This document shows positions 2,826 through 59,365 of a stretch of DNA of 64,000 nucleotides, piece by piece. Source of the DNA: Promethearchaeota archaeon (GTDB taxonomy: Archaea > Asgardarchaeota > Lokiarchaeia > Sigyniarchaeales > SOKP01); contig JAHLWS010000049.1 of the NCBI GenBank assembly GCA_019057795.1, forward strand, positions 64,001 to 128,000. The letters are read 5' to 3'. The number at the start of each line of letters is the position of its first letter. Position 1 is the first letter of the stretch. The notes under the pieces are model-generated. The model was not told where the DNA came from and made no database searches. It saw nothing but the letters and a program-made list of their open reading frames with translations. The translations under genes were made by a program, and so were the position numbers.

Positions 2826-3977
2826 TCAATCTTTTTCATTGCTGTAAGTTTGTAGGAGAGCGTTTGTTAAATACTCTGTGGCTTGAAAAACTTGTTCTAA
2901 TTCAATAAATTCGTCTATTTTATGAATATTGTTCGGATCCCCTGGGCCAAATATTACAAAAGGGATTGGATTATTAGCACTAATGAGATGAGCGGCATCA
3001 GTTGCATAGGATAAACCTAAAACCTCGCTTTTCGAGACCTCTTTTAGATTCTGAATGAATAGATGGTTTGAGTCTGTTTGAAGCGCAGATAGCTCATTTA
3101 TAATCTCTGTCTCGATAGAGAAGTTGTGTTTTTGAAGATTCTTTAAATTATCAATTAAAGAGTTATGATCTTGTTCGGGGATTATCCTATAGTCAAGCTC
3201 TAAGATAGCTTGATCCGGAACTATGTTAATAGCGGTACCTCCACTAATTTTTCCAATATTCAAAGTTGATTTTCCTAATATAACATTTGTATTTTCTTCT
3301 AAACAGTAGTATAATTGAGGAATAATTTTTAATGCTCCTTCAATTGCATTAATTCCTTCTTTGGGCGCTGATCCATGCGCAGATTTCCCAATTATTTTCA
3401 ATTTAACCCACAACAAACCTTTTTCACCGATCCCTATTTTTAAGTCTGTAGGTTCCGCTATTATTAGAAGGATTGAGTCGTCCATAACCCCTTGTTTTGA
3501 AAGAGTAATAGAACCTGCCATTCCTGCTTCTTCGTCAGCAGTTCCTACGAATACTAATGTATACTTCTCAAAAAAATCGGGAATTTTACTTAAGGTTTTC
3601 ATCACGCCTATTAAGGACGCAACGCCACCTTTCATATCAGCGGAACCGCGACCATATAATCTTCCATTTTTAATTTTAGCGGAAAAAGGAGGGTATTCCC
3701 ATTGAGCGGCGTCTCCTACAGGAACCACATCAAAGTGTCCAGATAATACAATTTTGTCTTTCCCATTTCCAATAGTAGATACAAGGTTATGGAGTTCTAC
3801 ACCGTTTTTTATACTTACAATAACTTGATTTTGAAAACCTTGTTCTTCTTTAAAAACATCAGCGATAAGGAAATTTACAATTTCTTTTGTTGTACCCGGT
3901 GGATTTTCTGAAGGGATTTGGACCAAATTTTTCAAGATAAAAATAATTTCGTCTCTTAAAAGTTTTGAAATTTTCAT
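2826..3977 (-). CDS. M20 family deacylase (ArgE/DapE-like)
   Basis: GHFDVVP, GRGSADMKGG, ADEE, AHGS, H..DE. Confidence 0.92.
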   Translation of the reverse strand: MKISKLLRDEIIFILKNLVQIPSENPPGTTKEIVNFLIADVFKEEQGFQNQVIVSIKNGVELHNLVSTIGNGKDKIVLSGHFDVVPVGDAAQWEYPPFSAKIKNGRLYGRGSADMKGGVASLIGVMKTLSKIPDFFEKYTLVFVGTADEEAGMAGSITLSKQGVMDDSILLIIAEPTDLKIGIGEKGLLWVKLKIIGKSAHGSAPKEGINAIEGALKIIPQLYYCLEENTNVILGKSTLNIGKISGGTAINIVPDQAILELDYRIIPEQDHNSLIDNLKNLQKHNFSIETEIINELSALQTDSNHLFIQNLKEVSKSEVLGLSYATDAAHLISANNPIPFVIFGPGDPNNIHKIDEFIELEQVFQATEYLTNALLQTYSNEKD

Positions 3978-4379
3978 TTTTAGCTATTGTGATCTTATTT
4001 CTTATCATAAATTAAATATATTTTTTCTGCTAGAAACTAACATCTGCCAAAATGGAAAGCATCTGTTTGTTGTTATACGAAAGTGTGTTTGTTTTTATTT
4101 TACATTTATCGTGATTTCTTTATGATATGTATTTATAAATTACATGGTAATTCTAAATTACTGTGGTGATATACATCATTTAAACGGAATAAAAACTTTA
4201 ATACCTTAAAAACCAAAATAGAGCTAATAAGAATACCATATCGCATTGAATGGTAAATTCAGAGTCTCTTTCCAATGAAAATTCTTTTGAAATTCAAATT
4301 TTAATTTTTACTTCAATACCGTGATATTAAAGAAAGACTAACTAAAATAAAACCATTTTATTATTATATCTATTAACTA

Positions 4380-7078: not shown

Positions 7079-7957
7079 GTGACATCTATAGGTAAAATAA
7101 AAAAAACAGAACGTAAAATAATAATTAAGATGTATCAATTTGCAAAAGAATTGTCAAATTCAGATAATCCACAACTTTATGAACTTGGACACTATCTAAC
7201 GGACAACATTATTTCAAAGATTTGCATGCTCGTCGCAATAGAAAATAACAAAAAAATTACAAAAAAAACACCTAAAGGGAAGGAATATTCGTTGTCCTTT
7301 CGTAAGCTATATAATAGTGTATTAAAAGAAATATACCCGAGCGTGCCTGATTATGAAGAGATAGAAAGTCTACACGAAGAAAGAAATATATATCAACACG
7401 AAGCGCGGTCAATATCTCATCATTTCAATCGTCAGTATGCTCTAGATTATTTAGAAAAAGTAAAGGAAATAATGATAGCTACAAATATCCTCGATATACA
7501 CGGTGAAACCGAAGCAACTAAATATTTTTCAGAAGATAACAAAGCCCTACCTGATAATGAGACCAAGAAAAAAAATAAAAAAATTCAGAAAAGGTGTCTA
7601 AAATCTTTAAATACTCTTTGTTCTTATTTATATGGAATTGAAGTAGGGCATTATGACAAGGACGCCCCAAAGGTAATTTCCTCGTTAAGTTTGTTAAAAA
7701 CTTATAAAGATCTAATCTTACCGTTAGGCATTACTTACTTGGATGTATCTACGAAAATAACAACAGGAATGTTCGCATTTTTGGATGGTGTTAAAATATT
7801 CGTTAACGTAGATTGCGAAAGGAGCCTGGAAATTGTTTTAGATCTTTATCAATTTAAAATTGTTACAATTCATAAGTTCCATATTGATGGCAGGGAATTT
7901 CAAGGTTTTGAAGAGGTTTCTCAGATTTTAGAATGCATACGTAAAAGAATATTATGA
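7079..7957 (+). CDS. HEPN-like domain protein
   Basis: AGGTGA RBS; LTDNIIS helix; ERNIYQH (Rx4H). Confidence 0.6.
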   Translation: MTSIGKIKKTERKIIIKMYQFAKELSNSDNPQLYELGHYLTDNIISKICMLVAIENNKKITKKTPKGKEYSLSFRKLYNSVLKEIYPSVPDYEEIESLHEERNIYQHEARSISHHFNRQYALDYLEKVKEIMIATNILDIHGETEATKYFSEDNKALPDNETKKKNKKIQKRCLKSLNTLCSYLYGIEVGHYDKDAPKVISSLSLLKTYKDLILPLGITYLDVSTKITTGMFAFLDGVKIFVNVDCERSLEIVLDLYQFKIVTIHKFHIDGREFQGFEEVSQILECIRKRIL

Positions 7958-12144: not shown

Positions 12145-12346
12145 GTCAGATTCACTATTTATAAAATGCTTTTTTTCCTATTTATATTTTAGGCGTATAT
12201 TTAATATTTTAATGTTGTTAAAAGAAAGTGTGCAATTCAGTATATATATGTATTATATCTTCTTAATTAAAAATTAAAAATTAAATTTATTAATAAAAAC
12301 TTATATAATTTTTAAAGGAAGCTTTTGATTTTTTAGGTGTGGTGCT

Positions 12347-12982
12347 ATTCCTCTAGGTATTTGCTTGATTAAATGGGATGAGATTCTTGGTGGAAATATA
12401 TACATGAAATATCCCAATGATGTAGCAATTCCTGATAATGTCGTACAACAGATCCAAATTTCGCACAATTTCGTTGAATCGTACATTACAATTGAAGAAA
12501 AGAATTGGAATTCAATTTCATATTATAACGAAGACAAAGAAATCATTATCGTATTAGTTTTAGATAAATACGACGACAGTTCAGATTATACCGTTATTTT
12601 AGATGAGTTCAAAAAAGAGTTAGAGTTAGAGTTAAACGAAGATAGCCTCAAAGAACATATAGAAAGAATATATAATCTTTCCTTAAAAGTTTTTAGAACT
12701 AGAGACGAAGTAATAGCGAAATTAAGCAATGAAGTAGCTCATCTTAAAACTATGGAATATGATTTTAAAAAGAAATTTGAAATGATTTTAAAATCAGATC
12801 ATCTAAAAGTAAAGAGCAAAATTCAGTTTTTATTAGCAATTAACGAAGAAATGAAATATAAGGATATTAAAAAATCTATTAATACTAGTAAAAGATGGTT
12901 AGATAGTGTCCTTGACGCTCTTTCTAAAAATAAAATTATCAAGTATGATAACGAAAAAGATACCTATTATCTTATTGTTTGA
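12347..12982 (+). CDS. uDENN/longin-like N-domain, coiled coil and C-terminal winged-helix protein (probable ATT start at 12347; ORF track starts at 12365)
   Basis: (M)PLGICLIKWDEILGG..YMKYP N-terminus; wHTH-like C-terminus ending YYL; GGTGTGGTG RBS before ATT. Confidence 0.6.
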   Translation: MPLGICLIKWDEILGGNIYMKYPNDVAIPDNVVQQIQISHNFVESYITIEEKNWNSISYYNEDKEIIIVLVLDKYDDSSDYTVILDEFKKELELELNEDSLKEHIERIYNLSLKVFRTRDEVIAKLSNEVAHLKTMEYDFKKKFEMILKSDHLKVKSKIQFLLAINEEMKYKDIKKSINTSKRWLDSVLDALSKNKIIKYDNEKDTYYLIV

Positions 12983-15803: not shown

Positions 15804-16553
15804 ATGGTAAAAGAAGTAAAAAAAGTAAAAGAAGTAAAAAAAGTAAAAGAAGTAAAAAAAGTAGAAGAAGTAGAGAAAGAAAAGGAAGAGAAGGAAGAAA
15901 AGGAAGTAAAAAAAGTAGAAGTAGAGGACGATGACGAATTCGACGATGAGGCTGATAAGGCTGAAGGTATCGATTACAAGATAGAGAATGTGGTAGCAAC
16001 TGTAGTTGTCGAGATCACAGAAAAAATCGATTTAAATATAATTGCTCGCAAACATGCTGATGTTGAATATAATCCTGAAAGATTTCCAGGATTAGTTATG
16101 AGAATTCTAAAACCGAAAGCAACTATCTTAATTTTCTCGACTGGAAAGATGGTAGTTACCGGTATGCGCAAAGCTTCGGAAGCCGATAGGGTTGTGGAGA
16201 AGGTGTTAAAGAATATAAGAAAAGCCGGAATAAAAGTATCCAATCCTGAAATTACCATTCAAAATATAGTAGCTAGTGGAGATTTGCACACTAATATAGA
16301 TTTAAATATGGCTGCAATTGTTATGGAGTTCGCTATGTACGAGCCAGAAGTCTTCCCTGGGTTAATCTATCGAATGCCAGACCCAAAAACCGTATTTTTA
16401 ATATTCAGCACTGGAAGGATTGTTTGTACAGGAGCAAAAAAAAGATCAATTGTTAGAGAAGCTGTAAAGTTGTTAAATGTACAGGTACGGGAGCTTGGTG
16501 TCGCAAAAAAGGACTTAGGCAATCCTGATTATCAAGATATAACCTTCATTTAA
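15804..16553 (+). CDS. tbp: TATA-box binding protein with charged repetitive N-terminal extension
   Basis: Two TBP repeats (IENVVAT..YNPERFPGL..IFSTGK; IQNIVAS..YEPEVFPGL..IFSTGR). Confidence 0.97.
   Translation: MVKEVKKVKEVKKVKEVKKVEEVEKEKEEKEEKEVKKVEVEDDDEFDDEADKAEGIDYKIENVVATVVVEITEKIDLNIIARKHADVEYNPERFPGLVMRILKPKATILIFSTGKMVVTGMRKASEADRVVEKVLKNIRKAGIKVSNPEITIQNIVASGDLHTNIDLNMAAIVMEFAMYEPEVFPGLIYRMPDPKTVFLIFSTGRIVCTGAKKRSIVREAVKLLNVQVRELGVAKKDLGNPDYQDITFI
15807..15878 (+). repeat. 18-bp coding tandem repeat (VKEVKK) x3 plus one degenerate unit
   Basis: GTAAAAGAAGTAAAAAAA three times, then GTAGAAGAAGTAGAGAAA. Confidence 0.9.
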
Positions 16554-16789: not shown

Positions 16790-17298
16790 TTAATCTTTTT
16801 GAAACACGATCATAAATTCACAGTATGTATTTCCTGATTGTAAACTGCAATTTACTTCTTGTGCGAAACAATGTATATTAGTCATTCTTTCAACCAAACC
16901 TGCTAATAAACCCGCTTCGAAGGAACAAAAACTTCCTTCTGTTTTAATTCCTTTATTGATAAGATCTTTAATTGAAGAATGCCCACTTAGTTTCAATTGA
17001 ACTAATTCCTCTGAACTTTCCGTAATCTCGACCTCTCCCAAATTATATTCGGTAATTTTTTTTTTAAGTGCTTCAGGTATGTTTTTAACGTCTTTAAGTT
17101 GTTTTACTTTTAGGATGGTTCCTAATTCATGATTCATGACTCATGTCATAAATTTTCATGCCCTAAATAGTAAAATATAGCCTCTAACTGATGACCTAGA
17201 GCCAACAAAGCCCCTACTTTCATATCTCCAATCTCTTTTCCATCTTCCAAATGTTTTCTCATTTGTATTAAAATTTTCGAAAGCAACGATCTATCCAT
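16790..17298 (-). CDS. V4R-domain protein (159 aa) split by a 29-nt insertion: exon 1 17298-17155, exon 2 17125-16790
   Basis: GGAG RBS plus ATG at 17298; exon 1 MDRSLL...IFYYLGHE joins LGTILK... to give the V4R-type YxxGxxxG helix; exon 2 has FCSFEAGLLAG, EVNC, CEF. Confidence 0.8.
17126..17154 (-). other. Candidate bulge-helix-bulge (tRNA-endonuclease-type) mRNA intron, 29 nt
   Basis: CAUG-AA^A-[AUUUAUGAC-AUGA-GUCAUGAAU]-CAUG-AA^U; canonical cuts restore the frame. Confidence 0.65.
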
Positions 17299-17335
17299 TT
17301 TTTAAAACTCCTTTTTTTTTAATTTTTTTTTATAT

Positions 17336-17629
17336 TTATATTTTTACGGAGGAAATAAACCCATATAATATCGCGTCAATAATATCCTCCTCTTGAATAT
17401 TTAAACTTAACCTTCTATCTGCCACAATTACCGTAGGCAAGGAGGTGATTTTATATTCGGTAGTTAATTTGTAATTTTTTTCTACATCTATTTTTTCAAT
17501 ATACAATTTCTTACCAAACATTGATATATTAATTCTCTTCAGCATTTCTTCTACTGGTTTACAAGGAGAGCAATAGGATGATGAAAAGAATAAAATCCTC
17601 GGGTAACCTTGTTGAAAATTTACTGACAT
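17336..17629 (-). CDS. Thioredoxin-like protein
   Basis: YCSPC (CxxC), KIDVE, SLPT cis-Pro motif. Confidence 0.85.
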   Translation of the reverse strand: MSVNFQQGYPRILFFSSSYCSPCKPVEEMLKRINISMFGKKLYIEKIDVEKNYKLTTEYKITSLPTVIVADRRLSLNIQEEDIIDAILYGFISSVKI

Positions 17630-17669
17630 AAATTAACCTTATGAATACCAGTAGATTATTGAATAAATT

Positions 17670-18218
17670 TTATTGATCCTTATATTTTTCATAAAGGGTT
17701 TTTATAATTGCTTGAAATGCTTCATAAACTCCAGTCCCTGTTTTTGCGCTGGTTTTGTAATATCCTAGAAAACTCTTTTCATTAGTTAGCTTTTCAACCT
17801 TGCTATCATCAAATGATTCTTTGCTCACTAAATCAATCTTGTTACCGAATAATACAATTGGAATATCTCCACAATATTTTTTAATATCATCATGCCATTC
17901 TGAGATGCTAGAAAAGCTTTTTTCTTCTTCTTCCGGCGCATGAGAAAAAACTATGATTGCGGCTTTACTTCCCTTGTAAAATGTAGGCCTCATAAAGGAA
18001 AACTCGGATTGACCTGCTATATCCCAAAAGAATAATTTAACGTGGCTATTATCAATTTTCTCGTCATATTTCGAAAATTGCGCGCCTAAAGTTTTTATAT
18101 ATTCTTTTTTAAAACTGCCTTTTGTGTATTTTTTGATTAAGGATGTTTTTCCGACAGCACCTTCACCTATCACTGTTATCTTAAACACGAAATCCTTTCT
18201 TTCATCACTTTCTTTCAT
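17670..18218 (-). CDS. Rab-like small GTPase
   Basis: GEGAVGKTS, WDIAGQ, GNKID, TSAK. Confidence 0.95.
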   Translation of the reverse strand: MKESDERKDFVFKITVIGEGAVGKTSLIKKYTKGSFKKEYIKTLGAQFSKYDEKIDNSHVKLFFWDIAGQSEFSFMRPTFYKGSKAAIIVFSHAPEEEEKSFSSISEWHDDIKKYCGDIPIVLFGNKIDLVSKESFDDSKVEKLTNEKSFLGYYKTSAKTGTGVYEAFQAIIKTLYEKYKDQ

Positions 18219-31072: not shown

Positions 31073-31603
31073 ATGTACGATGCAACCTTTAAGATCATTA
31101 TTTTTGGAGATGCTGGCTGTGGTAAGACCACTCTAACTCAGAGATTTTTGACTAATTTGTTTGTTTCTGATTCAAAAATGACCATTGGAGTAGATTTTGA
31201 GGTTAAGAGCTTAGAAGTTGACAAGCAGAAAGTAAAATTACAAATATGGGATTTTGGTGGAGAGGAGAGGTTTAGGTTTTTACTTCCTACATATGTTAGA
31301 GGCGCTCGGGGAGGTCTATTCTTATTTGATATAACAAATTATTCTTCCATCGCTCACATAGACGATTGGCTTAACGTTATTAGGAAAGAAATTCGAGCCG
31401 AGGATATATTTCCCATTATTGTAGTGGGCGGTAAAGCAGATTTAACAGAGAATAGGGAAGTTACAGCAGAAGACGGAATAAAAATTGCGAAATCGAGAAA
31501 TGTCGACGGTTTTATTGAAACTAGCTCTAAGACGGGAGAAAATGTTGAAAAAACGTTTGAGGCATTAACAAGGTTAATGCTTAATAATTCCAGAAGATAC
31601 TAA
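31073..31603 (+). CDS. Rab-like small GTPase with atypical G3/G4
   Basis: GDAGCGKTT, WDFGGEERF, GGKAD, TSSK. Confidence 0.93.
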   Translation: MYDATFKIIIFGDAGCGKTTLTQRFLTNLFVSDSKMTIGVDFEVKSLEVDKQKVKLQIWDFGGEERFRFLLPTYVRGARGGLFLFDITNYSSIAHIDDWLNVIRKEIRAEDIFPIIVVGGKADLTENREVTAEDGIKIAKSRNVDGFIETSSKTGENVEKTFEALTRLMLNNSRRY

Positions 31604-31690
31604 GTTAAAATAAAACTCATTTTTAAAGAATACCTTAAATCTTTTATTAAAGTATAATTTGATTACTACTATTTATTGAGAAGAATTTGG

Positions 31691-32554
31691 TTATTTATTA
31701 TTTACAGGAACCTTTTCAAGTATTCGTGTGTTAATTCTCCTATTTAAAACCATAGTCTGATATTCCATATCCTTCTTGTATAGGTTCGCAAACCTTAGAA
31801 GTTGTTCAATCATTTCGATTTCTTTATTTTCATCTCTGAAATAATATCCTCCAAAATTTGGGATTTCTGCGTACTTTTTCTTCAAACTTTCTTGTAATTC
31901 GCTAGGTAATACATCAGTTCTATCCTTTATTGCCAAATTTAAAGCTTCTGATAGTTCAATATATCTTTCTTGTTTACTAAACTGACACAAAATGCATTTT
32001 GAGCTTCTATTTTTAAGAATATATAAAATAATTATTCCAGTTAAATACCTAAAGTTATCGACTAATTCGTCGTAATTTCCTTTTTTCATGTGTTTTTTAA
32101 CTATTATTTCCGCAATTGAGTATAAACTCGAAAAATAAATCGCTCTAGAAAAGTATGCTGGATCAACACAAAACAATCTAGTAAACCAAAATGCGCTAAC
32201 ATCTTTAGGTGGATCTTCAAAAAATATGTAGTAAACTAACCTTCCTTCTCTTTCTTTATATAATGTAGATTCTTTTTTCAACATATTTAAATATGTTGAT
32301 ATGGTTGAACGCGCGATTTCTTTAAAGAATTTTTTATATTCTATTTCGACATCTCTCGTAGTTACCTTTTTTTTTCCCTCGAGATAGAATTTTAGGATTA
32401 TACCCAATATACGATTCTCGTGAAGTCTTCCTGTTTTAACTTGTGTTTCTTCCGATTCGTCTTCTCTAATGTTATAAATATCAATTAGTTCAGGAGCGAT
32501 TTCGTGAATAACTTTTTCCAAAATATAAATGTTTAATTCAGTAATTTCTAACAA
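31691..32554 (-). CDS. Winged-helix DNA-binding protein
   Basis: IARSTISTYLNML...REGRLVYY. Confidence 0.6.
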   Translation of the reverse strand: MLEITELNIYILEKVIHEIAPELIDIYNIREDESEETQVKTGRLHENRILGIILKFYLEGKKKVTTRDVEIEYKKFFKEIARSTISTYLNMLKKESTLYKEREGRLVYYIFFEDPPKDVSAFWFTRLFCVDPAYFSRAIYFSSLYSIAEIIVKKHMKKGNYDELVDNFRYLTGIIILYILKNRSSKCILCQFSKQERYIELSEALNLAIKDRTDVLPSELQESLKKKYAEIPNFGGYYFRDENKEIEMIEQLLRFANLYKKDMEYQTMVLNRRINTRILEKVPVNNK

Positions 32555-59135: not shown

Positions 59136-59330
59136 TTGCCAAAAGAGATATTTGACGAAGCGAGGTTTTTAGAGTTATCAGAGCGAGCTTTTCACTGTAG
59201 GGTTAAAAGGTCGAAAGATGTGGTGAAGTTAAAGCTTAGGACAAAACGACATCTTTTCACTTTTAAAACTGATCCAGCTACTGCTGATAGACTTGTAAAA
59301 AGCATTGGTTGTGATATCATCGAGCTATAA
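59136..59330 (+). CDS. rpl38e: Ribosomal protein L38e
   Basis: MPKEI....FLE....A...RVK.....KLKLRTKRHLFT. Confidence 0.9.
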   Translation: MPKEIFDEARFLELSERAFHCRVKRSKDVVKLKLRTKRHLFTFKTDPATADRLVKSIGCDIIEL

Positions 59331-59365
59331 ATAGATGATATATTAATTTTTATGGTTCAAAGTTA

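What the first reader, a model, noticed from the sequence alone, without database searches (positions are those of the whole stretch)
17109..17167. Candidate bulge-helix-bulge intron in an Asgard protein-coding mRNA (V4R gene)
Seen: a 48-codon frame with a GGAG RBS (ATG 17298) reads ...IFYYLGHE and then hits stops. The rest of the V4R domain (LGTILK...CEF) lies 29 nt downstream in another frame. The minus-strand RNA reads GGG-CAUG-AAA-[AUUUAUGAC-AUGA-GUCAUGAAU]-CAUG-AAU-UAGG. This gives a 4-bp CAUG/CAUG helix (17160-17157 with 17131-17128), a 3-nt segment after each strand of it, and a 9-bp inner stem (one G-U) with a tetraloop. Established: archaeal tRNA splicing endonuclease (EndA) cuts after the second nucleotide of each 3-nt bulge in this geometry and RtcB ligates the exons; the well-documented archaeal mRNA case is cbf5 in Crenarchaeota. 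Applying that rule removes 17154-17126 (29 nt) and gives CAU-GAA-UUA-GGA (H-E-L-G), rebuilding the YxxGxxxG helix and a 159-aa protein. The outer exon helix is relaxed: one adjacent G-U pair, or UUUAGGG 17167-17161 pairing with UCCUAAA 17115-17109 (a bulge-helix-loop form). Inference: non-spliceosomal mRNA splicing in a close archaeal relative of eukaryotes. I know of no description of this but cannot check the literature. Caveat: CATGAA is repeated at both ends, so a templated duplication that inactivated the gene, or an assembly artefact, would look similar.
Basis: partly seen in the sequence, partly recalled or inferred. Interest (0 to 1): 0.95.

Follow-up and report, generated by a model that had tools for sequence, protein, structure and literature searches.

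The report
New tRNA-type mini-intron in Asgard gene
A small ligand-binding (V4R-like) gene of a Loki-type Asgard archaeon is broken by a 29-base insert shaped like a tRNA intron; it is probably cut out of the mRNA by the tRNA-splicing enzymes, like at least eight similar inserts in other conserved genes of this genome, but no RNA data could be read to prove it.

Summary
A 29-nt insert (window 17126-17154, minus strand) splits a 159-codon V4R/DUF2507-like gene. It folds with 4-bp helix CAUG/CAUG, a 3-nt bulge and a 9-bp hairpin. The second cut site lies in a loop, so this is a relaxed bulge-helix-bulge (BHB).

The insert is absent from all 25 same-genus orthologues I read, so it is a terminal-branch gain. 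An independent Logan assembly reproduces it, so it is not an assembler artefact.

The support is indirect:
- A motif-free comparison with a relative found six 29-36-nt inserts in conserved genes of this genome (radA-like, cdhD, hppA twice, an epimerase, this gene). Each has BHB geometry where the frame is restored.
- nadE and the only rpl11 gene are interrupted likewise.
- The genome has two EndA paralogues and RtcB.
- Other lineages carry older introns in this gene at two other sites. One shows purifying selection on the exons and compensatory stem changes.

Best reading: an EndA/RtcB-spliced mRNA intron, very recently gained (about 0.7). Main rival: a fresh inactivating insertion (about 0.17).

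Searchable papers describe only the cbf5 intron and one Haloferax 5'-UTR intron. Earlier notes of this scan report similar Asgard introns on other DNA, some claiming RNA support.

The parts
17155..17298 (-). Exon 1 of the V4R/DUF2507-like gene (codons 1-48, MDRS...IFYYLGHE)
   Evidence: 98% identical to the N-terminal 48 residues of the intact same-genus orthologues
17308..17311 (-). GGAG ribosome-binding site about 10 nt upstream of the ATG at 17298
   Evidence: read from the sequence
17126..17154 (-). 29-nt insert, the candidate BHB-type mini-intron; it begins with A and ends with AA
   Evidence: absent from all 25 same-genus orthologues read; present in an independent Logan assembly; no other copy in the genome.
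17157..17160 (-). Central helix H, exon strand (CAUG)
   Evidence: pairs with 17128-17131, pair probability 0.98
17128..17131 (-). Central helix H, intron strand (CAUG)
17154..17156 (-). 5' three-nucleotide bulge AA|A; predicted cut between 17155 and 17154
   Evidence: The cut rule (after the second bulge nucleotide) is established knowledge for archaeal EndA.
17132..17153 (-). Intron hairpin h': 9-bp stem (17153-17145 with 17140-17132, one G-U pair) and tetraloop AUGA (17144-17141)
17125..17127 (-). 3' cut-site segment AA|U; predicted cut between 17126 and 17125. It is closed directly only by G17161-U17124 and lies in a 12-nt loop in the minimum-energy fold.
17161..17175 (-). Exon-1 strand of the distal exon-exon helix (17167-17161 and 17175-17169)
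   Evidence: minimum-energy and centroid structure
17102..17115 (-). Exon-2 strand of the distal exon-exon helix (17115-17109 and 17108-17102)
16790..17125 (-). Exon 2 (codons 49-159, LGTILK...CEFMIVFQKD, plus the stop codon)
   Evidence: V4R PF02830 29.5 bits (cut-off 31); 95% identical to the closest orthologues
17135..17148 (-). Stop codon of the unspliced exon-1 frame (TGA 17148-17146), and 8 nt further an ATG (17137-17135) inside the insert. The ATG is in frame with exon 2 and opens a 115-aa ORF, MNHELGT...
   Evidence: no GGAG-like site lies upstream of this ATG

Best explanation
The 29-nt insert is a tRNA-type (bulge-helix-bulge class) mini-intron in the pre-mRNA of a V4R/DUF2507-like gene. 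It was gained on the terminal branch that leads to this genome.

Proposed mechanism:
- The transcript folds so that exon nucleotides CAUG pair with the intron's last CAUG, forming the 4-bp helix H.
- On the 5' side a 3-nt bulge (AA|A) sits between H and the intron's own 9-bp hairpin.
- On the 3' side the cut site (AA|U) lies two nucleotides past H, in a loop held by a distal exon-exon helix.
- The heterotetramer-type splicing endonuclease (EndA) cuts after the second nucleotide at both sites, and RtcB joins the exons.
- The product reads ...GGG CAU GAA UUA GGA..., which encodes the full 159-aa protein.

Shown here: the structure, the exact restoration of the orthologous frame, the presence of the enzymes, and the existence of sibling introns in this genome and in this gene family.

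Inferred, not shown: cleavage and ligation of this RNA.
For: 1. Geometry. H is 4 bp, the 5' bulge 3 nt and h' 9 bp. The pair probability of H is 0.98, and the fold has z = -3.9 against shuffles.

2. Correct product. Cutting by the BHB rule removes exactly 29 nt. The product aligns without a gap to the intact orthologues.

3. Motif-free census. I searched ORFs from 1.09 Mb of a same-genus relative (G008) against this genome; 818 had an orthologue-like match.
- Six inserts of 29-36 nt interrupt conserved genes: a Rad51/RadA-like gene (31 nt), an epimerase (31), cdhD (36), hppA (30 and 34) and this gene (29). Five break the reading frame. The 30-nt hppA insert is in frame without a stop and would add 10 residues inside an invariant motif.
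- All six have H plus 3-nt bulges at the frame-restoring register.
- Their splice products align gaplessly to the relative, and Pfam profile coordinates run on across the inserts.
- The two hppA splices restore the invariant motifs NAGGAWDNAKK and GDPFKDTAGPS. Both inserts are absent from four closer relatives.
- As a control, only 1 of 26 ordinary in-frame indels had H = 4 with h' of 3 bp or more.

4. Essential gene interrupted. The only rpl11 locus carries two such inserts. Its second insert folds with the same architecture as the V4R insert. nadE carries a 30-nt insert with a TAG stop and full hBHBh' geometry.

5. Shared end signature. Eight of 9 inserts in this genome start with A and 7 of 9 end with AA, as this one does.

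6. Enzymes. There are two EndA paralogues; one matches the A. pernix catalytic subunit 3p1z_B at E = 4e-34. RtcB is present. Asgard EndA is reported as (alpha-beta)2 with the L1 loop that confers broad specificity, and HBh' is reported as the most permissive substrate class (PMC5829648).

7. Older introns in the same gene family.
- Site 1 (after codon 32, 38-39 nt, with an in-frame stop) occurs in at least 15 distinct sequences. Exons evolve with dN/dS 0.09 between two carriers at dS 0.59. The intron differs at only 2 of 39 positions between them. In the BHB fold 87.7% of cells are paired and 3 pairs show compensatory changes, with 0 of 500 shuffles as good.
- Site 3 (in codon 42, 32-35 nt) holds a homologous intron copy.

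8. Not an assembler artefact. An independent assembly carries the identical insert.

9. The gene is otherwise intact. On this genome's own branch there are 14 synonymous against about 5 non-synonymous changes.
Against: - No RNA evidence.
- The insert is unique to one genome. It is absent from all 25 same-genus orthologues read, including those 96-97% identical over exon 2. There is therefore no conservation or covariation for this intron, and no time for decay to show if it were a pseudogene.
- The 3' cut site lacks a proper closing helix (one G-U pair). Cleavage would depend on a broad-specificity EndA, which I inferred from the literature. I did not test for the L1 loop.
- CATGAA is repeated at both boundaries and CATGA occurs four times within 40 nt. 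That also fits a duplication or template-switch mutation. A longest-shared-word test against flanks drawn at random from the genome was not significant (p = 0.37), so this reading is neither supported nor excluded.
- The gene is not obviously essential, and an earlier unchecked note reports a second V4R-like gene in the window.
- An isoenergetic alternative register (A-U pair shifted by three) would predict a 27-nt excision that does not restore the frame.
Confidence: 0.7

Rival explanations
1. A very recent inactivating insertion has made this V4R copy a fresh pseudogene. A replication slippage or template-switch event at the CATG palindrome would have copied local sequence in direct and inverted orientation. 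It looks like a BHB only because a duplicated palindromic tetranucleotide pairs with itself.
For: - CATGAA flanks both ends, and CATGAAT/CATGAGT units are repeated within the insert.
- The insert is unique to this genome.
- No RNA evidence exists.
- The outer helix at the 3' site is essentially missing.
- The gene is dispensable in principle.
Against: - The hairpin abuts H with exactly a 3-nt bulge on one strand and none on the other. The 2-nt offset at the 3' end is exactly what gives the in-frame join.
- The same exact geometry recurs at the other inserts found without using the motif. These include hppA motifs and the only rpl11 gene, which cannot all be pseudogenes.
- Ordinary indels lack the geometry.
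- The length, 29 nt, falls within the 28-36 nt range of the other eight inserts read in this genome.
- The test for local sequence reuse was not significant.
Confidence: 0.17
2. The gene now works as two separately translated pieces. A 50-aa N-terminal peptide ends at TGA 17148-17146. A 115-aa C-terminal protein is re-initiated at ATG 17137, 8 nt downstream. The duplicated CATGAA supplies His-Glu to both pieces.
For: - The ATG inside the insert is in frame with exon 2, and the stop-to-start spacing is short.
- Gene callers annotate the two ORFs in an independent assembly.
Against: - No GGAG-like site precedes the internal ATG, unlike the true start.
- The break falls inside the region matched by DUF2507 (residues 34-139 of the intact orthologue).
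- Most of the family proteins listed are single 159-aa chains. The shorter calls I checked came from site-1 introns, not from natural fission.
Confidence: 0.06
3. Assembly or sequencing artefact: the hairpin insert is not in the organism's DNA.
For: It is a quasi-palindromic insert in a metagenome-assembled genome, and raw reads could not be inspected.
Against: - An independent Logan assembly of SRR14803104 contains the identical insert within a 24.9-kb contig, identical over all 1138 compared bases. A second contig carries the same 115-aa product.
- Sibling inserts of the same class sit in several other genes of the genome.
Confidence: 0.02

Closest known systems
BHB intron in the cbf5 (pseudouridine synthase) pre-mRNA of Crenarchaeota (Watanabe 2002; Yoshinari 2006; Yokobori 2009, PMC2738675)
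   Same: It is a short intron inside a protein-coding sequence with BHB-class structure at the exon-intron boundaries. It is removed by the tRNA splicing endonuclease of a hetero-oligomeric type and an RNA ligase, and it is present or absent among related species.
   Different: - The lineage is different (a Loki-type Asgard archaeon) and so is the gene.
- Here the motif is relaxed on the 3' side.
- The intron is confined to one genome rather than conserved across orders.
- It is one of at least nine such inserts in this genome, not a lone case.
- Splicing of cbf5 was shown experimentally; this one was not.
BHB intron in the 5' UTR of HVO_1309 mRNA, Haloferax volcanii (PMC7714728)
   Same: An mRNA substrate of the archaeal splicing endonuclease outside tRNA and rRNA.
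   Different: That intron lies in an untranslated leader, so it does not restore a reading frame. Haloferax has a homodimeric EndA that needs a strict BHB.
Non-canonical tRNA introns with relaxed HBh'/hBH/BHL motifs in Crenarchaeota and Asgard archaea (Marck and Grosjean 2003; PMC5829648; bioRxiv 10.64898/2026.10.13.758758)
   Same: - The architecture matches: H plus one well-formed bulge and an intron hairpin, with the second cut site in a loop.
- Sizes of a few tens of nucleotides.
- Repeated recent gains on terminal branches.
- The same enzyme type, (alpha-beta)2 EndA with the L1 loop.
   Different: The host RNA is an mRNA. The exon half of the motif is therefore built from coding sequence, not from a tRNA stem, and excision must be exact to the nucleotide to keep the frame.
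Unconventional HAC1/XBP1 mRNA splicing in eukaryotes (IRE1 cleavage, RtcB or Trl1 ligation)
   Same: Non-spliceosomal removal of a short (26-nt in XBP1) frame-shifting intron from a cytoplasmic mRNA. Cut sites lie in small stem-loops and ligation is by the tRNA ligase.
   Different: The nuclease is IRE1, not the tRNA endonuclease. The cut sites lie in two 7-nt loops, not a BHB. Splicing is stress-regulated; no regulation is shown here.

Membership tests
Archaeal BHB-class intron (EndA/RtcB-spliced) | Central 4-bp helix flanked by two 3-nt bulges on opposite strands, or an accepted relaxed form (HBh', hBH, BHL) | tested here: met
   - H is CAUG/CAUG (4 bp), the 5' bulge AAA, and h' 9 bp.
- The 3' site AAU is closed only by one G-U pair, or lies in a 12-nt loop under a 14-bp distal helix. 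This is the relaxed HBh'/BHL form, not the strict hBHBh'.
Archaeal BHB-class intron (EndA/RtcB-spliced) | Cuts after the second nucleotide of each bulge give a functional, homology-consistent join | tested here: met
   Removing 17154-17126 gives a 477-nt CDS that is collinear and gapless with the same-genus orthologues.
Archaeal BHB-class intron (EndA/RtcB-spliced) | The host encodes a splicing endonuclease able to cut relaxed motifs, and an RtcB ligase | tested here: inconclusive
   - Two PF01974 paralogues are present.
- One matches crenarchaeal catalytic subunits over its full length (3p1z_B, E = 4e-34); the other is more divergent.
- RtcB is intact.
- The broad-specificity L1 loop was not examined here; it is reported for Asgard EndA in PMC5829648.
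Archaeal BHB-class intron (EndA/RtcB-spliced) | The intron is actually excised from the RNA (spliced junction, or free or circular intron) | not testable with these tools
A scan of metagenome contigs for the spliced or unspliced junction found nothing.
Archaeal BHB-class intron (EndA/RtcB-spliced) | Maintenance by selection: the intron is kept in related genomes with structure-preserving changes while the exons stay under purifying selection | tested here: not met
   - For the 29-nt insert: it is absent from all 25 same-genus orthologues read, so the feature cannot be shown.
- For the sister intron at site 1 of the same gene it is met: dN/dS 0.09, 3 compensatory pairs, 0 of 500 shuffles.
V4R / DUF2507 small-molecule-binding domain family | Match to the family profile above the curated threshold | tested here: inconclusive
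   - Exon 2: PF02830 29.5 bits against a cut-off of 31.
- Intact orthologue: PF10702 32.6 against 35, and PF02830 28.5 against 31.
- PDB 2osd (MJ1460): E = 0.0026 over residues 39-153.
- Precomputed Pfam labels for the relatives list both families.
- Assessment: a likely member, with sub-threshold scores.

The most novel reading that the evidence does not exclude
BHB mini-introns in these Loki-type Asgard archaea may be a proliferating, semi-mobile class of element. They would enter protein-coding genes wherever four exon nucleotides can pair with the intron's own 3' end.

Observations that allow this reading:
- In this one 159-codon gene, three positions are occupied in different lineages.
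- Two of those positions (exon CUAG|CA and CUAU|AU) hold homologous copies of one intron whose 3' end reads (A/G)UAG-AA, and the two copies can occur together in one gene.
- This genome gained at least six introns that a same-genus relative lacks, while none was found the other way round.

The window's 29-nt insert would then be a just-arrived member. It would offer a view of how non-spliceosomal introns are born in the archaeal lineage closest to eukaryotes, a question a 2026 preprint on Asgard tRNA introns leaves open.
Probability: 0.3. Interest if true: 0.9.

Novelty: new member of a known kind. Interest (0 to 1): 0.78.

Why it matters
In the papers I could search, protein-coding BHB introns in archaea amount to one gene (cbf5 in Crenarchaeota) plus one untranslated-leader case in Haloferax.

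Here a Loki-type Asgard genome carries such inserts in at least eight conserved genes: rpl11, a radA-like gene, hppA, cdhD, nadE, an epimerase and this V4R-like gene. One small gene family shows three separate intron positions.

If these are spliced, several things follow:
- Cutting and rejoining of messenger RNA by the tRNA-splicing machinery is routine in the closest archaeal relatives of eukaryotes.
- Genome annotation of these organisms systematically miscalls such genes as split genes or pseudogenes.
- Intron gain can be studied on very short time scales. This insert arose after the split from relatives that are 96-97% identical over exon 2.

It also offers a comparison point for RtcB-dependent HAC1/XBP1 splicing.

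Tried and rejected
- **Motif-only genome scan.** I required H of 4 bp, 3-nt bulges, h' and fusion of two ORFs. In this 31% G+C genome it gave 36,897 hits with a flat length distribution, mostly junctions between neighbouring genes. It was useless as a catalogue, although it did surface nadE.
- **Scan hit in this window at 59315-59344 (+).** It is the junction between an eL38-like gene and the next gene, not an intron.
- **Census candidate on contig C20 (29 nt).** It was the shadow of an antisense ORF; the real gene is uninterrupted.
- **Census hits of 12-24 and 75 nt at gene ends (C52, C62, C65, C67).** They had no convincing geometry.
- **Nucleotide comparison with 246 kb of relative G005.** It gave too few coding indels to be informative.
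- **Apparent -1 frame breaks in the census.** They are not in homopolymers, and several sit at gene boundaries. I drew no conclusion about genome decay from them.
- **Test for local sequence reuse as the origin of the inserts.** It was not significant for any of nine inserts.
- **Similarity of the 29-nt insert to the site-1 and site-3 introns.** Borderline only (p about 0.05-0.06), so I do not claim homology.
- **Search for other copies of the insert in the genome.** None found.
- **Metagenome-contig scan for the junction, with or without the insert.** No match.
- **ARAGORN on the genome.** It found only 29 tRNA genes, several of them dubious, so it could not give a reference set of this organism's tRNA introns.
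- **Pfam scan of hppA alone.** It reported no stops and hid both inserts; they appeared only in the comparison with relatives.
- **rpl11 first insert.** By hand I found only 3 of 4 H pairs, with a 5-bp outer helix. I did not resolve it further.
Full report
**Observation.**
On the minus strand, an ATG at 17298 lies behind GGAG (17311-17308). It opens a frame of 48 codons that ends ...IFYYLGHE, then reads N-L-stop. The rest of the protein (LGTILK...CEFMIVFQKD) begins at 17125 in another frame.

The 29 nt between them (17154-17126) read A-AUUUAUGAC-AUGA-GUCAUGAAU-CAUG-AA.
- Exon CAUG (17160-17157) pairs with intron CAUG (17131-17128).
- AAA (17156-17154) is a 3-nt bulge.
- A 9-bp hairpin follows directly.
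- RNAfold gives this fold: dG -20.3 kcal/mol, z = -3.9, and 1 of 200 shuffles as good.
- The four pairs of the central helix have probability 0.98.

On the 3' side the segment AA|U is closed only by a G-U pair. In the minimum-energy fold it lies in a 12-nt loop under a 14-bp distal exon-exon helix (17175-17161 with 17115-17102).

**The insert is real but unique.**
The window is contig C49:64001-128000 of a 4.95-Mb assembly with 31% G+C. Its same-genus relatives are MAGs labelled Promethearchaeota archaeon, that is, Loki-type Asgard archaea.
- I read 25 same-genus orthologues of the gene. None has anything at this site.
- After removing the inserts, all 23 genes aligned (this one and 22 orthologues) give exactly 477 nt with no gap.
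- The closest relatives are 96-97% identical over exon 2 and read GGGCATGAATT(G/A)GGAACC at the site.
- On a gene tree the insert is a gain on the terminal branch.
- It has no other copy in the genome.
- An independent Logan assembly of run SRR14803104 carries the identical insert on a 24.9-kb contig, with 1138 of 1138 compared bases identical. An assembler artefact is therefore unlikely.
- A scan of metagenome contigs for the junction, with or without the insert, found nothing.

**Does this organism have BHB introns in mRNAs? An independent, motif-free test.**
A scan based on the motif alone was hopelessly noisy in this AT-rich genome. I therefore fetched 1.09 Mb of a same-genus relative, G008, and searched its ORFs of 90 aa or more against this genome. 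Of these, 818 had an orthologue-like match.

Six inserts in this genome interrupted those orthologues:

| Gene | Contig | Insert |
|---|---|---|
| Rad51/RadA-like | C32 | 31 nt |
| NAD-dependent epimerase | C31 | 31 nt |
| cdhD | C85 | 36 nt, in frame, two stops |
| H+-pyrophosphatase hppA | C56 | 30 nt and 34 nt |
| V4R-like (this finding) | C49 | 29 nt |

The 30-nt hppA insert is in frame without a stop. It would add 10 residues inside the motif NAGGAWDNAKK. The other five inserts break the reading frame.

- In every case a 4-bp helix (3 of 4 pairs in the epimerase) with two 3-nt segments sits at the register that restores the frame. An intron hairpin follows directly.
- The outer exon helix is often 0-2 bp, as in the V4R case.
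- Splicing by the BHB rule gives peptides that align without a gap to the relative's proteins.
- The hppA splices restore the invariant motifs NAGGAWDNAKK and GDPFKDTAGPS.
- Pfam profile coordinates run on across the inserts: Epimerase 1-130 then 135-240, and CdhD 7-180 then 181-227.
- Both hppA inserts are missing from four closer relatives.
- The reverse comparison found no frame-breaking insert in the relative's 1.09 Mb. Its 26 ordinary in-frame indels almost never showed the geometry, only 1 of 26.

Beyond the census, nadE has an in-frame 30-nt insert with a TAG stop and a full hBHBh' fold. The only rpl11 locus is also interrupted twice. Removing 30 and 28 nt restores GGPPIGPAVGPTGINIKDVVDAVN. 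Its second insert folds with the same architecture as the V4R insert: helix, 3-nt bulge, 8-bp hairpin and a loop on the 3' side.

Eight of the nine inserts begin with A and seven end with AA, as the V4R insert does.

**Enzymes.**
The genome encodes two EndA paralogues.
- One aligns over its full length to the catalytic subunit of the Aeropyrum pernix heterotetramer (3p1z_B, E = 4e-34).
- The other is more divergent.
- RtcB is intact.

The literature reports that Asgard archaea have the (alpha-beta)2 EndA with the L1 loop that gives broad substrate range. It also reports that HBh' is the most permissive relaxed substrate (PMC5829648). I did not check the loop myself.

**The same gene family is an intron hot spot.**
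*Site 1.* Three same-genus species carry a different, 39-nt insert with an in-frame stop after codon 32.
- It forms an hBHBh' fold: outer helix CCUA/UAGG, H of CUA/UAG plus a G.A mismatch, bulges CA|A and AA|U, GG/CC, then a hairpin.
- Between two carriers the exons differ with dS 0.59 and dN 0.052, a ratio of 0.09. The intron differs at only 2 of 39 positions.
- A deeper carrier, AMARA_5S, has a 38-nt version, with synonymous sites saturated and pN/pS 0.2.
- A protein search and a pattern scan of metagenome contigs brought the set to 15 distinct sequences.
- On their alignment 87.7% of cells pair, against 24-48% when the partners are slid. Three pairs show compensatory changes, and no shuffle out of 500 reaches the covariation score.
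- A gene that keeps a stop-bearing insert under strong purifying selection must remove it from the message.

*Site 3.* A third position lies inside codon 42 (exon ...GCUAUAU|). It carries a 32-35-nt insert on three contigs, two of which also have the site-1 intron.
- The site-1 and site-3 introns are homologous, with 26-27 of 38 positions identical and 0 of 2000 shuffles as good.
- Their 3' end, (A/G)UAG-AA, pairs with exon CUAG or CUAU at the respective site.

The 29-nt insert of this window is not significantly similar to either (p about 0.05).

**Weighing the readings.**
For the intron reading:
- The geometry is exact.
- The product is exact.
- The length and end signature are those of the sibling inserts.
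- Some of those siblings sit in genes that cannot all be dead, such as the single rpl11.
- The gene is intact apart from the insert. Its own branch shows 14 synonymous against about 5 non-synonymous changes.

Against it:
- There is no RNA evidence.
- There is no conservation.
- The 3' site is relaxed.
- CATGAA is directly repeated at both ends, which would also fit a duplication-type mutation.

The repeat is largely explained by a palindromic H helix plus A-rich bulges. A test for reuse of local sequence was not significant (p = 0.37), so it decides nothing.

A split-gene reading is possible but weak: a stop at 17148-17146 with re-initiation at ATG 17137. No ribosome-binding site precedes that ATG, and the break lies inside the domain.

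My estimates are: spliced intron about 0.70, fresh pseudogene about 0.17, split gene about 0.06, artefact about 0.02.

**What is known.**
In the library I could search, protein-coding BHB introns are described for cbf5 of Crenarchaeota only (PMC2738675; restated in PMC7714728 and PMC5829648), plus a 5'-UTR intron in Haloferax (PMC7714728). A 2026 preprint documents heavy, repeatedly gained tRNA introns in Asgard archaea and leaves their origin open (10.64898/2026.10.13.758758). It does not treat mRNAs. Searches combining Asgard, Lokiarchaeota or Promethearchaeota with mRNA introns found nothing else. Coverage of subscription journals is incomplete.

Earlier notes of this scan report similar inserts in this genome (rpl11, hppA and others) and in other Asgard genomes, some with claimed RNA support. 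I re-tested rpl11 and hppA myself and did not test the rest.

**Verdict.**
This is a new member of the known class of EndA-type mRNA introns. It is relaxed in form and very recently gained, and it sits in a genome and a gene family where such introns are demonstrably common. Proof for this particular insert needs RNA.

Noticed in passing
Contigs C31 (~7166-7198), C32 (~7500-7532), C56 (~31573-31605 and ~31729-31759), C85 (~12178-12214), C69 (within 3368-4102) and C73 (~108825-108980) of the same genome; loci L140, L141, L044, L142, L045, L117: Eight further 28-36-nt BHB-type inserts interrupt conserved genes of this genome: an epimerase, a Rad51/RadA-like gene, hppA (twice), cdhD, nadE and rpl11 (twice). 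The six found by comparison with G008, counting the V4R insert, are absent from that relative. The two hppA inserts are also absent from four closer relatives, which suggests a lineage-specific burst of gains.
   Followed up: yes
L147:8540-8900 (+), L160:100-460 (+), L145:500-700 (+), all metagenome or Logan contigs: Orthologues of the V4R-like gene carry introns at two other sites: after codon 32 and inside codon 42. Two contigs carry both. The two introns are homologous in sequence, which suggests that an intron was copied to a second site within the same gene.
   Followed up: partly
L167:690-960 (-), contig SDBV01478302.1: In this 1-kb contig the V4R-like gene, which has a site-1 intron, runs into unrelated sequence right after ...LEAIFY. 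This could be a larger insertion or a chimeric contig.
   Followed up: no
Whole genome (G000); window 12197-12361: ARAGORN with introns allowed finds only 29 tRNA genes in a genome scored 100% complete, and several calls are dubious. One is a 'tRNA-Tyr(ata)' with a 71-nt intron at C49:76197-76361, which is window 12197-12361. The plain tRNA scan found none in the window. This fits tRNA genes that are heavily interrupted at non-canonical positions.
   Followed up: no
Window 16790-18218 (-), with L143, L144 and L139: The gene order small Arf/Rab-like GTPase, thioredoxin-fold protein, V4R-like gene is conserved on distant metagenome contigs, often with a second GTPase gene downstream. This suggests a functional link between the V4R-like protein and the GTPases.
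   Followed up: no
Window 15804-16553 (+): An ORF reading like a TATA-box-binding protein carries an N-terminal extension of about 50 residues made of VKE/KEE repeats and acidic residues.
   Followed up: no
Genome contigs C71:120014, C46:13691, C49:145586 (outside this window), C60:5810: Several orthologues that are intact in G008 appear split by a -1 frame change in this genome. The sites are not in homopolymer runs, and some sit at gene boundaries. They could be real frameshifts, overlapping genes or sequencing errors.
   Followed up: partly
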